Assembly (NCBI GenBank): GCA_964016885.1
Contig: OZ024746.1
Span: 85,064,001-85,128,000, forward strand
DNA length: 64,000 bases
Direction: 5' to 3'
From: Eledone cirrhosa
Lineage: Eukaryota
How positions within the stretch are numbered: position 1 is the first letter of the stretch; every line of letters begins with the position of its first letter. Positions 5,023 through 54,931 of this stretch are shown in pieces. Made by a program: the position numbers and the translations under genes. The notes under the pieces were generated by a model, which saw nothing but the letters and a program-made list of their open reading frames with translations, had not been told where the DNA came from and ran no database searches.

Positions 5023-5160
5023 ATATATAATAAAACATATTGTATATAGCTTTCACAACAGTAATTTAAATGTTTACATTTTCGTAAGGGAAAGTTTTAA
5101 AGAGTTTATATCAACAATTGAAAACTCCTTCTAATCTATTATTAATCTAATTTATTCGGT

Positions 5161-5342
5161 AATAATTGTTTCTACTTTTGGCACAAGGCCAGCAATTATC
5201 CCAGTGCATTACTGGTACTTTATTTATCGACCCCGTAAGGATGAAAGGCAAAGTTAACCTCGGCGGGATTAGAACTCAGATCATAAAGGAAGTAACTCCA
5301 TGCTTCAAAGCATGGCGCCCGACCCTCTACCGATACTGCCAA
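5161..5342 (-). mobile_element. tRNA-derived SINE (family S1)
   Basis: A-box-like TGGCAGTATCGG, B-box-like GAGTTCTAATCCC, core gcctttcatccttacggggtcgataaa, ATT-rich tail. Confidence 0.9.
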
Positions 5343-7639: not shown

Positions 7640-8135
<496 letters not shown>

Positions 8136-16379: not shown

Positions 16380-16504
16380 TAGGAGGTGAGTTTTATTGTA
16401 GTACAATAAAGCAATGCAGATATCGGATAAGAAGCACTCTACAGTTTGTAGGACTGGAGTATACATAATATATAAGAACAAAAGATGGTTAAAGGAGTTC
16501 CATG

Positions 16505-16575
16505 TATTTTATTATGCGCATTTCAAAAACAAATATCATCATGCAATAATATTTGTGTTTTCATCAGATAAAACA
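16505..16575 (-). ncRNA. Type I hammerhead ribozyme (minus arm)
   Basis: Reverse complement of 16691-16761; tcatcag at 16561-16567. Confidence 0.8.
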
Positions 16576-16690
16576 GGACATGATATGAAGGCTAAAAAAC
16601 ACTTGTGGATAGTTCAGTTTTAAATCAACATATGTTGATTTAAAACTGAACTATCCACAAGTGTTTTTTAGCCTTCATATCATGTCCTCC

Positions 16691-16761
16691 TGTTTTATCT
16701 GATGAAAACACAAATATTATTGCATGATGATATTTGTTTTTGAAATGCGCATAATAAAATA
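16691..16761 (+). ncRNA. Type I hammerhead ribozyme (plus arm)
   Basis: Stem I tgttttat/ataaaata; CTGATGA 16699-16705; long stem II; GAAA 16742-16745; palindromic stem III ATGCGCAT; triplet ATA. Confidence 0.8.
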
Positions 16762-16791
16762 CATGGAACTCCTTTAACCATCTTTTGTTCT

Positions 16792-16862
<71 letters not shown>

Positions 16863-18776: not shown

Positions 18777-19005
18777 GAATAATCGAGTATCGAAAAATCG
18801 GCGCACGAGTTCACGATAAACAAAATTCGAGATGAGAGGCAGAGGGCTCCATAATTCAAATAAATCAGAGCTATAACTATCGTTAAAATACCGTCACACG
18901 TAGAATATGTCTACAATCAACCAAACGACCGAAAAATTGCGATATGGAAGATTCGGGACACTCAGATAAATTATCAATAAATCAAATATATATATATATA
19001 TATAT

Positions 19006-19268
19006 ATTTCGTTTTTGAATTTGTTTAGCAAGATTCCTTATCTGAAAACGTGTGGTGAAACCGATATTGTTATACTTTGAATCCACAGTCACTGAAGAAG
19101 TCACAGAATGTGTGACGAAAGAACTTTTAAAATATGTGAACAACCATCCGGTTATAGAACCAACCAACCAACCGGAAATTTATAATAAATTGAAATGAAA
19201 ACAACTGGTGTGTATGTTTCTTATTGGTTTCTTATTGGCAACATGACCCTCCCAAAGCATAACAATAT
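19006..19268. mobile_element. Family B copy with 5' inversion; HHR-like motif 19088-19126 (+)
   Basis: 3' tail on minus (19006-19079), 5' part on plus ending at aacaatat|(AT)n; CTGAAGA-a-gtcaca/tgtgac-GAAA. Confidence 0.8.
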
Positions 19269-19554
19269 ATATATATATATATATAATCAGCCATAGATAC
19301 GCACATACATACATTCACACACATATAAATACATATATACTTACAGTTATATACATGTGTGTTTATGACATTTTGTAAAGCAATAATTTAATAATAATTG
19401 CTTCAGTAACAAGCGACATTGACACGATAATTTGGTAAATATGTTCCCACCAAATACCAGCTTAATGTTCTAATTTAGCTACCGTATATACATCTGATAG
19501 TCCTATATTTTTGTTCTTAAAACACTATTTCATTTTTGTAGATATGTACCCTTA

Positions 19555-29620: not shown

Positions 29621-29996
29621 AAAATGCTTAGAGCCTCAAAAAGACCTATTTCGGTCTTGATTGCAGCTTAGCTGTTAATTGTATTACGAGAAACTCCAGC
29701 AATCCAGTATTGAGTGCTCTCGCCACTTATATATGTTATGTAAGTATATATATATATCGGACCCCCCCCCCCAGTTGATGGATGTGAATCCGAAATATAT
29801 AGGGACAATTAAATCTCTCCCAAGGTAACTCTATCTCGTGTTATTATTTTTATCCTTTACACTCTTTCTTACATTCTTCTACACGCTACACATCTCAACC
29901 TACATTCACTTACATCTCTCTCTCTCTCCACCACCGGATCTTGTTACCCGCAGATTTACCCATCTGCATTGTTGAGGCTTCCAAAACGACCTAAAG

Positions 29997-35468: not shown

Positions 35469-35890
35469 CACGTATTTGGAAACGTAGTACAATGCAAATA
35501 GAAAATATAATACTGGAATTAGGGTTGGGCAAAATAAGAAAAATGACAAAGCGAAACAAAGTTTTACCCTATATATTTCATATTTCAAGGTTAGAACTTC
35601 TTTTTCAAATGTTGAATGAAAACAAATCGGAGCGTCCTGTTCCTACGAGCGATTCTTGGCTGTGAGACTGTATATATAACCAACCGTCCCAAATCCCAGT
35701 CAAATGTAATACATATCATTTTGACAGCAGATGTTTTGCAAGTTTTATTGTTAACTGTGCTAAGTTTCATTCGTTAATGATTTGATTTTTAAGAACTTCA
35801 TTAAGCAAAGAGTAAACTCATTGAAATGAAATTCAACATATGTCTATTTTCAGATATCTGACCAAATGTAGAGAAACTACTTTCTCTAAA

Positions 35891-36030
35891 TATATTTGGG
35901 TAATATAAATGAATAAAAATAACTATTCGCATTTCGATATTCAAGGGAATATTATAGTGAATGTTATAATATTCCCTTGAATAGCTAAATGCGAATAGTT
36001 ATTTTTATTCATTTATATTACCCAAATATA
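35891..36030. repeat. 140-bp inverted repeat
   Basis: tatatttgggtaatataaatgaa... pairs with ...ttcatttatattacccaaatata. Confidence 0.9.
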
Positions 36031-36509
36031 TAGTGAATATTATAGTCCCATTTTTTCAAACGATTGTATATAGAAAATCAGAGTTGATTTCATTCTGTAG
36101 ATATAAACATTCATTTTTACTTAAGAGTAACGAAAACTTCAGATAATTTATAACAAAATCCAATAGAGTTATTTCCCCACTCTCTAAAATAAACCCATAT
36201 ATACATAATAAACAACATTCGTTTATATAATCGTTCAATACTATTATTCTTTCTTTACTGTTTTTTTTTTTATTGAGTTTTGTTGTTTTTCTCTTAACAG
36301 CCGAAATATATATTAAATGTAGGTTTTACTTATATATCAAAGATAAAATTCGCTGGATTATAGCATAAGCAATCATATTACGAGTTCATTTTCAAACGTT
36401 TTGTGATATGTCAAGGGTATTTTAAATCATATAAATATAAAAACATTCGATGTTAACTCTTCTATTGCTAAAAGCTGAAACTCTGATTAGCAATCGTTTC
36501 AACTACCGT

Positions 36510-36550
<41 letters not shown>

Positions 36551-36558
<8 letters not shown>

Positions 36559-36936
36559 ATGCTTTGGGAGGGTCATGTTGCCAATAAGAAACACACGCAC
36601 CAGTTGATTTCACTCCAATTTATTATAAATTAAATTTATAAATTTAAGAATTTATAAATTTTCGGGTGGTTGGTTGGTTCCATAACCGGACGGTTGTTCA
36701 TATATTGCCAAACTTCTTTCGTCACATATTCTGTGACCTCTTCAGTGACTGAACCAGCCAGCCAACCGGAAATTTATAAATTCTTAAATTTATAAATTTT
36801 ATTTATAATAAATTGGAGTGAAAGTAACTGGTGCGTGTGTTTCTTATTGGCAACATGACCCTCCCAAAGCATAACAATATCGGTTTCAACACACGTTTTC
36901 AGATAAAGAATCTTGCTAAACAAATTCAGAAACGAT
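36551..36936. mobile_element. Family B copy with ~130-bp inverted arms; HHR-like motif 36707-36749 (-)
   Basis: Arms 36551-36680 and 36751-36880; minus strand gtca-CTGAAGA-g-gtcaca/tgtgac-GAAAgaagtt-tggc. Confidence 0.85.
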
Positions 36937-36946
36937 ATATATATAT

Positions 36947-37255
<309 letters not shown>

Positions 37256-44060: not shown

Positions 44061-44607
44061 TGTTAGATAAAATCTACCAAGAGTTTACGGTAGTGTCCCA
44101 ATCCGTATGAAGAACTCAATGTATTCCGGATATCATGGAAAGAAGAGATGTAATGAAAAATCCAATTTCGGTGAAAGATAAACGGTATACAGAGTCAAGA
44201 TAAAATATTAAAACAAAATAATGAACAAAACAATTCCTTATATTAAAACAAAAAAAAAGTTCACTATTTAACGATCGTTTTCTAGGGTATATATGTGTTT
44301 ATAATTGGTATGCATATTTAACAGATCTATGTACAAAAATTATACAAAAATTATACAAATTATCAAGATTAAAATATACATACCTAACTCATATATACGC
44401 CGTCCTTTCAGAAATATTCGGCGTATATATGAGTTAGGTATGTATATTTAATCTTGATAATTTGTATAATTTTTGTATAATTTTTGTACATAGATCTGTT
44501 AAATATGCATACCAATTATAACACATATATACCCTAGAAAACGATCGTTAAATAGTGAACTTTTTTTTGTTTAATATAAGGAATTGTTTTGTTCATTATT
44601 TGTTTAA

Positions 44608-44616
<9 letters not shown>
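44061..44616 (-). mobile_element. TA-flanked insert with ~415-bp palindrome (44200-44616)
   Basis: ~200-bp arms, 16-nt loop 44403-44418, unique tail 44061-44199. Confidence 0.8.
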
Positions 44617-49717: not shown

Positions 49718-50847
49718 CTCTCGCTCTCTACGTACCCCTCCTCTTTCTCTATCGCTCTCTCCTGCCCTCCCTGTTTCTCTCTATCGTTCTCTCCTGCCCT
49801 CCCTGTTTCTCACTATCACTCTCTCTTCCTCCCACTGTTTTTCTCTCTCTCTCTCTCTTCCTCTCTCTCTCAATCTCTGCTTCTTTCTTTCTCTCTCTCT
49901 CTGTCACTCTCTCCTTCTCCCCTTCTCTTTCTCTTTCTCACTCTCCTTCTTTCTCCTTCCCTCTCCTTCCCTCTCCTTCACTCTCCTTCATTCTCTCTCC
50001 TTCACTCTCCTTCACTCTCCTTCACTCTCCTTCCCTCTCCTTCTCTCTCCTTCCCTCTCCTTCCCTCTCCTTCCCTCTCCCCTCTTTCTCTCCCACTCTC
50101 ACTCACCCTCTTTCTCTTTCTTCTCTTATTCCAGCTGTCGTACATAGATTTATATTATATTTCTCAATTCTCCTTTACCCACACTCTCCTTCTTCTTCCC
50201 CCCTCTCCCTCTGTTGTAAGCAACCCTGTCATTCATGCTTTACTCTATGCTCTAGTTTATAACGTCTCCCCACCCCACCGTCTACTCCTTCCTTTCGTTC
50301 CTCTACACACGTCACTCCCTACATCCCTTCATTACCTAATAAAAAATCATACAGATAACCATATGCTAAGCGGATCCACATCAAGCCTCTAAACATCGCC
50401 ACCCTCCTTTTACTACTCCCTTACATGACAAGTTGCCGTCAACGAGCGTGTCTCGGCGAAAAATCACAGCCCAGTTCGGTGGTATAACAGGGTAGGGGTA
50501 TGTTGGGGGTATTTGTCTGAAGAATAGTTAATTGTGAAAAGCCCACATTAAAGTGTTGACAAACCTTCCTAATCGGCAGGATCGTAAAGAAATAATAATT
50601 ATAGTAATGATAAATAATTGTGTCTTTATTTACCAAACGGGTGGCGAATGGAGAACATAATAATAAAAATAATAATAACTGTTTCTAATTTAGACACTAG
50701 GCCGGCAATTTTGGGGTGAGGGGAAAGCCGATCCAGTACTTGACTAGTACTATATTTTATCGACTCTGGTAGGATGAAAGGTTAATGTTGACCTCAGCAT
50801 ATATTAATGAGACTATCTTCCCAATTTAGAGACCAAATCTCCGGTTA

Positions 50848-51079
50848 GGGTTGTTCAAATAATTGTTTCTACTTTTGGCACAAGGCCAACAATTACCCAG
50901 TGCATTACTGGTACTTTATTTTATCGACCCCGTAAGGATGAAAGGCAAAGTTAACCTCGACGGGATTTGAGGTTAACTTTGCCTTTCATCCTTACGGGGT
51001 CGATAAAATAAAGTACCAGTAATGCACTGGATAATTGCTGGCCTTGTGCCAAAAGTAGAAACAATTATTTGAACAACCC
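50848..51079. mobile_element. Head-to-head inverted duplication of a truncated SINE S1 including flank
   Basis: gggttgttcaaataattg...cctc|gacgggattt|gagg...caattatttgaacaaccc. Confidence 0.9.
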
Positions 51080-51430
51080 CAAATAATGAGAAGAAAGTTG
51101 CTATAACCTGAATTGTTCAAAACATTTAGGAACAATTTAAGACAATGTAGAGGGAGTGTACCTTGTCTATAAGCTAACATGGCGAAAGAAACGGGCAAGA
51201 CTAAATTTCCTTAGTGAAGACTATTCACTTAGCAAGTTAGCCAGGCAAGAACATTAGAATATGTATATGAAAGATGAATGAAATTATGCGCTGATGATAG
51301 AAAATGGAAAAAGATTAATATTGACGTACATGTACGTCAATACTCGTCTTTTTTCCATTTCCTAAAGGGTTTTAAACCCCACTATCAGGCTAAAATTTCT
51401 TTAGTCAAAAATACGGCGAAACCTTCTATT

Positions 51431-54150: not shown

Positions 54151-54890
54151 TAAAACATGTCTTTAGAATCACTAGATATAATATATACCATTTCCTCTCC
54201 CAATTAGCATAATTAACCATATAAAAAATCAATTAGACCAAGCTATAAGAATAAAGGCTCCTATGAAGAAATCTCCGACAAATAACCGAAAGCAGCCCCT
54301 TCGCGGTGGCTACGATGTAGTATTTATCGAACATTTCGACAGCATGTAGAAATCGACCAGATATACAGTCAACCAAACACAATTAGGTGTAAAATCAAAC
54401 TTAGAAGAAATGCGTACATACCAAATTACCTCTACCATGGTTTCATCCGTATTTTAAGACATCCGATAACAGGGAATGTCCAGAGCTTCAGATTCATCAG
54501 GAGTGAACTCAAAATTAGACATTTAATTTTCCAAAGTGATCGCGTCAAAAATACATTCAAAAATGGCTAAGAATCGTGACGTGGCAGCGGTCAAGGTAGA
54601 AAGGATGTGATTAGTTGCTTACGGCGGGTAGGCTTATTGCTAGAAAACGCAGCCCAATATAGCCAAATTGTATCTCAACCTAACGGGAGATTATTACATA
54701 TAAAGGTTTACATATATATAAAGTCATAGATATATATATGTTTTGCAACAGGTCACGTTGTGGCTCAATGAAGAATTAATAAATTAATAGCTCTGATTAT
54801 TTAATTTATTAATTTTTCATTGAGCCACAACGTGACCTGTTGCAAAACACATATATATCTATGACTTTATATATATGTAAACCTTTATAT
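54149..54890 (-). mobile_element. TA-flanked HHR element with 5' inverted repeat 54698-54890
   Basis: Minus-strand HHR; ~90-bp arms ending at cctttatat|(AT)n. Confidence 0.75.
54428..54504 (-). ncRNA. Type I hammerhead ribozyme
   Basis: Minus: actc-CTGATGA-atctg...cggat-GAAAC-catg-GTA-gaggt; palindromic stem III ACCATGGT. Confidence 0.78.
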
Positions 54891-54931
54891 ATATATATAT
54901 ATATAAGTATATATATATACATATATATATT

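What the first reader, a model, noticed from the sequence alone, without database searches (positions are those of the whole stretch)
19006..19268. Twin-priming signature reproduced at the same internal site in two copies
Here the 3' tail is on minus and the HHR-containing 5' part on plus, overlapping by ~16 nt; at 36551-36936 the overlap is ~130 nt. In both, the inverted part ends exactly at aacaatat|(AT)n. Established: twin priming explains L1 5' inversions. Inference: the second TA strand primes at a fixed internal AU-rich site and variable overlap turns inversions into palindromes.
Basis: partly seen in the sequence, partly recalled or inferred. Interest (0 to 1): 0.7.

Follow-up and report, generated by a model that had tools for sequence, protein, structure and literature searches.

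The report
Penelope element primed at two sites
These two back-to-back repeats are short pieces of a very common Penelope-type jumping gene whose mirror-image insertions almost always pair one end at each of two fixed points 60 bases apart, which likely means both cut DNA strands start copying the element's RNA, one at each point, and offers a testable answer to how this class of elements inserts.

Summary
Observation confirmed: overlaps are 16 and 130 nt and both inverted arms end at AACAATAT|(AT)n. The repeat is the ribozyme-bearing end of a Penelope-like retroelement (RT, CX4CxxC linker, C-terminal GIY-YIG; Neptune/Nematis type), with over 13,000 such ends in this genome. The 'fixed site' is the known pLTR/tail boundary. 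The '3′ tail' end is also internal: both ends are AATAT|CG words at ORF nt 26 and 86. In 73 of 76 inverted units with both ends at these sites, one arm uses each site. The two arms share haplotype (3.4% versus 44% discordance), join through short microhomology, and often each hold sequence the other lacks. That excludes fold-back, the published explanation, for 27 of 60 units and 14 mini-inserts. A longer AT word nearby is almost never used (40 versus 4,704), so AT-likeness alone does not set the site. Best reading: two-ended priming at two fixed sites, likely on one RNA; unlike L1 twin priming. Layout and two in-vitro start sites are published; the one-site-per-strand rule was not found in print, but this scan noted it before on other DNA of this genome.

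The parts
18986..19007 (.). (AT)n target tract left of copy 1
19004..19079 (-). Copy 1 tailed arm: 60-nt tail (ORF nt 27-86) plus 16 nt of pLTR; outer end at the second AATAT word
   Evidence: (L061)
19079..19268 (+). Copy 1 tail-less arm (pLTR from about -203 to 0); outer end at the first AATAT word; G19079 shared by both arms
19088..19130 (+). Minimal type I hammerhead motif (core CTGAAGA at 19092); 3' strand of stem I mutated in this copy, predicted impaired
   Evidence: motif features from PMC4209133 passages
19269..19285 (.). (AT)n tract right of copy 1
36513..36554 (.). (AT)n tract left of copy 2
36551..36751 (-). Copy 2 tail-less arm (pLTR about -196 to 0) with hammerhead motif at 36749-36707 (stem III pair changed in this copy)
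   Evidence: (L001)
36751..36940 (+). Copy 2 tailed arm: 130 nt shared with the other arm (36751-36880) plus tail (36881-36940), then (AT)n to 36946
8046..8135 (+). Tail fragment of a related, diverged family that shares the same end region

Best explanation
These are 5'-truncated, head-to-head insertions of an endonuclease-bearing Penelope-like retroelement into (AT)n, with one arm ending at each of two AATAT|CG words 60 nt apart in the start of its ORF, and they likely form when both cut target strands prime reverse transcription, one at each word, probably on one RNA. Shown: element identity, the two fixed ends, the one-of-each rule, shared haplotype, and microhomology at the inner join. 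Inferred steps: (1) the GIY-YIG nuclease cuts both strands in (AT)n; (2) each ATAT 3' end pairs with an AUAU word that the protein holds in place; (3) both copies run toward the RNA 5' end, and the one begun at +60 displaces the one begun at 0 (these RTs lack RNase H, recalled); (4) each stops at its own point, often near a likely transcription start about 260 nt upstream; (5) the two cDNA ends join through 1-6 nt of microhomology or a small insertion and are filled in. The overlap is simply the shorter arm.
For: One-of-each rule: 39 of 44 divergent neighbour pairs in pattern lists; 73 of 76 inverted units with both ends at a fixed site, p=2e-18 against 50%. Genome-wide the two terminal types are about equal: 13,391 and 14,736. 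Both sites are AATAT|CG, the only two such words in 1,742 nt of a natural ORF start; pLTR and tail run on into the ORF in 27 of 30 loci. Both-way unique sequence: the tail-less arm reaches more than 12 nt further 5' in 27 of 60 two-arm units. 14 of 39 apparent solo tail-less ends hide a 6-28 nt inverted tail arm with no overlap at all. Arms of one unit differ at 19 of 559 polymorphic sites, against 29,866 of 67,840 for other copies; repeat-tract length is equal in 13 of 22 (2.8 expected). Inner microhomology mean 2.4 nt (n=18) against 0.83. Inner ends coincide within 12 nt in 6 of 34 units outside two hot zones (1.6 expected, p=0.002). A related element cuts and extends both strands in vitro from two start sites that bound the tail, and is predicted to be a dimer (PMC11167929).
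Against: Sequence cannot separate one RNA from two RNAs of the same source copy. Shared rare alleles are only 50 in 10,112 columns against 20 in 9,961 for the best-matching other copy, and they sit in 12 of 53 units. PMC11167929 saw no difference in start site between strands and no homology between start site and target. About a third of units have no visible partner (29 tailed; 25 tail-less after the 14 are removed, several of them from a related family). Three or four units pair like ends, and six pair with an end elsewhere. 19 of 37 inner joins were called insertions; the method also miscalls 137 of 400 null joins. Target-site duplications cannot be read in (AT)n. Gene conversion between arms could add to their likeness.
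Confidence: 0.68

Rival explanations
1. Both strands prime as above, but on two RNA molecules from the same source copy, held by an asymmetric dimer that uses a different site on each.
For: Explains long overlaps (median 108 nt, up to 1,852) without strand displacement. It fits the shared haplotype if one source copy dominates in a cell. The rare-allele excess is modest.
Against: Needs an extra reason why two RNAs nearly never use the same site (73 of 76). Coinciding inner ends outside hot zones (6 of 34) suggest one shared RNA end.
Confidence: 0.2
2. Fold-back (self-priming), as proposed in PMC3846280: one strand folds on itself at its end and is copied, which makes the palindrome.
For: 17 of 69 units have near-equal inner ends. 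In 33 of 60 units the tail-less arm lies, within 12 nt, inside the tailed arm. It explains arm identity directly.
Against: A folded-back copy must lie inside its template arm. In 27 of 60 units each arm has sequence the other lacks, as in both window copies, and 14 mini-inserts have no overlap. It gives no reason for the copy to stop at one AATAT and skip the longer AT word.
Confidence: 0.06
3. Both copies start at the tail end and the nuclease later trims one arm at the first AATAT word (the tail as a product of nuclease resolution, as suggested in PMC8557442).
For: The nuclease of a related element prefers AT-rich words. It would give one tailed and one tail-less arm.
Against: In vitro RT start sites fall on both tail boundaries. 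The trimmed end would have to be rejoined to (AT)n, which follows it in 69 of 73 units.
Confidence: 0.04
4. L1-type twin priming with a chance internal annealing site, or two unrelated insertions side by side that were later homogenised.
For: Inner microhomology is enriched. (AT)n tracts do take repeated insertions (L246).
Against: The inverted arm's start is fixed whatever the other arm's length. The longer AT word is used in under 1%. Independent insertions predict 50% like-ended pairs. 41 of 53 units share no rare allele yet agree at lineage sites, which late conversion would not give.
Confidence: 0.02

Closest known systems
Endonuclease-bearing Penelope-like elements with inverted pLTR and one-sided tail (PMC8557442, PMC3846280; passages read)
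   Same: Partial tandems, 5' truncation, inverted 5'-truncated copy, tail on one end only, pLTR holding the first codons, hammerhead in the pLTR, (TA)n target, C-terminal GIY-YIG.
   Different: The tail is 60 nt rather than 30-40. The one-of-each rule is counted here. Both boundaries carry the same AATAT|CG word. Published explanations are self-priming or nuclease resolution.
PAc (Poseidon of Anolis) in vitro, PMC11167929 (parts 1-2 of 4 read)
   Same: Two internal RT start sites in the 5' end of the ORF that bound the tail; both strands cut and extended; hammerhead cleavage not needed (here no pile-up of ends at the predicted cut, 2 of 33).
   Different: PAc start sites were reported as not homologous to the target and not strand-specific. 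Here both sites match the (AT)n target and are used one per side in single insertions.
L1 twin priming (model recalled; passages of 10.1101/2024.12.14.628481 read)
   Same: Two target ends each extended by RT, head-to-head product, microhomology at the inner join.
   Different: L1 starts at a poly(A) end and the second site varies, so the arms barely overlap (recalled). Here both sites are fixed and internal, and the arms copy the same stretch.

Membership tests
EN+ Penelope-like element | Single ORF with RT and GIY-YIG nuclease | tested here: met
   RT: PF00078 at E=3e-5 to 1e-4, below the curated cut-off, YVDD motif. Nuclease: VVY...YIGET motif; nearest Atlas clusters score 0.97, with PF01541 on 13-18% of members. 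No single intact ORF was seen; the order rests on overlapping natural copies.
EN+ Penelope-like element | pLTR in partial tandem, holding the ORF start, with optional tail | tested here: met
   27 of 30 loci show pLTR and tail running into the ORF; 460 exact read-through junctions.
EN+ Penelope-like element | Hammerhead motif in the pLTR | tested here: met
   Core, stems I-III and extra base before stem II intact in 36 of about 60 matches (the script lists each match twice). No Rfam hit.
EN+ Penelope-like element | Self-cleavage and transposition activity | not testable with these tools
   Needs RNA and protein assays.
Neptune or Nematis clade | C-terminal nuclease with CCHH and an upstream CX2-5CxxC linker | tested here: met
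   CIDKKCIIC linker; two Cys between the VVY and YIG motifs, His residues downstream; definitions from PMC8557442.
Neptune or Nematis clade | Placement in the RT phylogeny | not tested
   No reference proteins were fetched, so Neptune versus Nematis is open.
Naiad / Hydra clades | N-terminal nuclease without hammerhead (Naiad); no CCHH (Hydra) | tested here: not met
   Nuclease is C-terminal, with CCHH and a hammerhead.
L1-type twin priming | First primer at the RNA's 3' end; variable internal second site; little overlap of arms | tested here: not met
   Both ends internal and fixed; overlap of 15 nt or more in 58 of 60.
Two-ended priming in the wide sense | Two separately templated arms joined by microhomology | tested here: met
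Two-ended priming in the wide sense | One RNA molecule for both arms; target-site duplication | tested here: inconclusive
   Shared haplotype and coinciding ends fit, but do not exclude two RNAs of one source; duplications are unreadable in (AT)n.

The most novel reading that the evidence does not exclude
Penelope-like elements integrate by a built-in double-priming step: one protein dimer grips one RNA, presents two identical AUAU words a tail-length apart to the two cut ends of (AT)n, and the trailing polymerase strips the leading cDNA off the RNA, replacing RNase H and second-strand priming. Tail, inverted pLTR and palindromic junction would then all be marks of one normal reaction, not errors.
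Probability: 0.45. Interest if true: 0.75.

Novelty: new variant of a known kind. Interest (0 to 1): 0.52.

Why it matters
How Penelope-like elements make their inverted repeats and one-sided tail is stated as open in PMC8557442, and the in-vitro work stops at first-strand synthesis. The one-site-per-side rule, with identical target-matching words at both sites and arms of one haplotype, gives a definite model that an existing assay can test. It bears on the telomerase-related RT class and on a repeat with tens of thousands of ends in this genome.

Tried and rejected
Rfam scan of the window: no hit. Hammerhead cut as the source of inner ends: 2 of 33 ends in -250..-140 fall at -158..-153, about 1.8 expected; rejected. 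The first microhomology script was confounded by indels (11 units skipped) and was replaced. Folding the ORF start showed no unusual structure (z=-0.97); the two window hammerheads fold weakly. Idea that copy 1's inner junction was mass-copied: only 3 matches genome-wide; the one compared in detail (L070) has different flanks; rejected. AT-likeness as the sole site rule: rejected. Pfam found no GIY-YIG on the C-terminal piece. The PDB search gave one weak RT hit (E=0.025). Sequencing runs: no RNA holder listed, so no reads were laid. No phylogeny, fold or complex prediction was run.

Full report
Observation. Both structures are as described. Copy 1 has a tailed arm on minus (19004-19079) and a hammerhead-bearing arm on plus (19079-19268), sharing 16 nt. 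Copy 2 has a tail-less arm on minus (36551-36751) and a tailed arm on plus (36751-36940), sharing 130 nt. Each has one shared base at the inner join and (AT)n on both sides. Below, position 0 is the last base of AACAATAT; 'tailed' ends lie at +60, 'tail-less' ends at 0.

Identity. The window lies in a 3.0-Gb genome. [quoted passage not shown] In 27 of 30 loci chosen for the ORF's 5' part, pLTR and tail run on into the ORF. So the tail is ORF nt 27-86, and both end sites are AATAT|CG words, the only two in 1,742 nt of that natural copy. The pLTR holds a minimal hammerhead with the features listed in PMC4209133; it is damaged in both window copies. By the motif definitions in PMC8557442 this is a Neptune/Nematis-type Penelope-like element; no tree was built.

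Genome-wide counts of exact patterns: anchor alone 31,667; anchor ending at 0 in (AT)n 13,391; anchor continuing into the tail 12,202; tail end in (AT)n 14,736; tail reading on into the ORF 460. The patterns differ in length, so the ratios are rough. Control: a longer AT word near -150 ends in (AT)n in 40 cases against 4,704 that read through. AT-likeness is therefore not enough; position is fixed.

Pairing rule. Among 191 listed ends in the first 42 Mb of contig C1, 39 of 44 divergent neighbour pairs within 6 kb had one end of each type. I fetched all 139 clusters and mapped arms on a natural copy. Each cluster was chosen by one end, so the partner end was free. After dropping 3 apparent duplicates, 87 inverted units remain: 73 one-of-each, 2 tailed/tailed, 1 tail-less/tail-less, 1 tail-less paired with an end at -6, 2 whose 'tailed' side reads on into the ORF, 6 with a partner ending elsewhere, and 2 cut by the region edge. 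73 of 76 against 50% gives p=2e-18. (AT)n follows 69 of 73 tail-less and 63 of 73 tailed ends. Of 39 apparent solo tail-less ends, 15 were flagged and 14 were real by eye (one a likely duplicate) as hiding a 6-28 nt inverted piece of the tail end; none of 29 solo tailed ends hid a tiny tail-less arm. Loci from other queries show the same layout (read by eye, not counted).

Inner junctions. In 60 simple two-arm units the tail-less arm reaches more than 12 nt further 5' in 27, the tailed arm in 18, and they are within 12 nt in 15; overlap median 108 nt, range 0-1,852, at least 15 nt in 58. Of 37 joins scored outside a self-complementary zone, 18 were flush or overlapping, with mean microhomology 2.4 nt against 0.83 in the null (p=2e-6); 19 were called insertions, some being local duplications and some method error, since 137 of 400 null joins were also so called. 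Inner ends pile up at -273..-244 (26 of 98 arms that reach it; neighbours 1 of 99 and 5 of 72), just upstream of an AAGATGGCG word that resembles a YY1 site (name recalled); a transcription start there is an inference. There is no pile-up at the predicted hammerhead cut.

One template? In 53 of 73 units with 40 or more usable columns, the two arms differ at 19 of 559 polymorphic sites; other copies differ at 29,866 of 67,840. Repeat-tract length agrees in 13 of 22 (2.8 expected). Rare alleles shared by both arms number 50 in 10,112 columns, concentrated in 12 of 53 units, against 20 in 9,961 for the best-matching other copy; 164 rare alleles are in one arm only. Inner ends coincide in 6 of 34 units outside both hot zones (1.6 expected). 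This shows a common source at insertion, argues against late conversion, and leans to one RNA without proving it. The window copies are older-looking: their arms differ at several bases, including one site in copy 1 where its closest relative agrees in both arms.

Mechanism. See Best explanation. Fold-back cannot make units in which each arm has unique sequence, as in both window copies. L1-type twin priming does not predict a fixed second site or large overlap.

Literature. PMC8557442 (passages) and PMC3846280 (passages) describe the inverted copy and the one-sided tail; they ascribe the tail to nuclease resolution and the palindromes to self-priming. PMC11167929 (parts 1-2 of 4) shows both-strand cutting and extension and two start sites bounding the tail, without a strand difference. 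10.64898/2026.07.22.740005 (word search) has no match for tail, priming, both strands or head-to-head. 10.1101/2024.12.14.628481 (passages) was read for L1 twin priming; the original L1 paper is recalled only. Searches found no statement of the one-site-per-side rule, but the library lacks several older Penelope papers and I opened no supplements. Earlier notes of this scan report the same layout and reading on other DNA of this genome; I saw them after stating my own reading and count them as leads only.

Verdict. A real feature of a known element class, with a sharper and testable rule than is in print as far as searched. Interest 0.52.

Noticed in passing
window 16460-16806, 35890-36031, 37011-37161, 44202-44613, 54695-54893: Near-perfect palindromes that do not match this family; three of the four read in full (16460, 44202, 54695) have (AT)n on one side. 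They may be fold-back duplications at (AT)n breaks.
   Followed up: no
window 5160-5342 and about ten more copies; 50845-51082: A second short repeat family, one copy forming a head-to-head palindrome; no hammerhead core found by my pattern.
   Followed up: no
L208, L210, L246, L272, L281, L297, L298, L302: Recurrent mini-inserts of about 50 bp: the last 6-20 nt of the tail inverted, joined by microhomology to the last 33-41 nt before site 0, between two (AT)n tracts.
   Followed up: partly
reference -273..-244 in loci L181-L319: Pile-up of inner ends upstream of a YY1-like word (name recalled); possible transcription start of the pLTR.
   Followed up: partly
L204, L238, L239, L281, L309; window 8046-8135: A related family with a different upstream sequence ends at the same AAGTATAACAATAT site in (AT)n.
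   Followed up: no
G000:C1:132947045-132947579: Tandem array with a 46-bp period made of the tail end and the next ORF bases.
   Followed up: no
L070/L371 and L373: Two other loci have almost the same inner junction as window copy 1; L070 has different flanks.
   Followed up: partly
L320-L323, ORF N-terminal part: An asparagine/threonine-rich low-complexity stretch inside the ORF, recalling the N-rich inserts described in PMC3846280.
   Followed up: no
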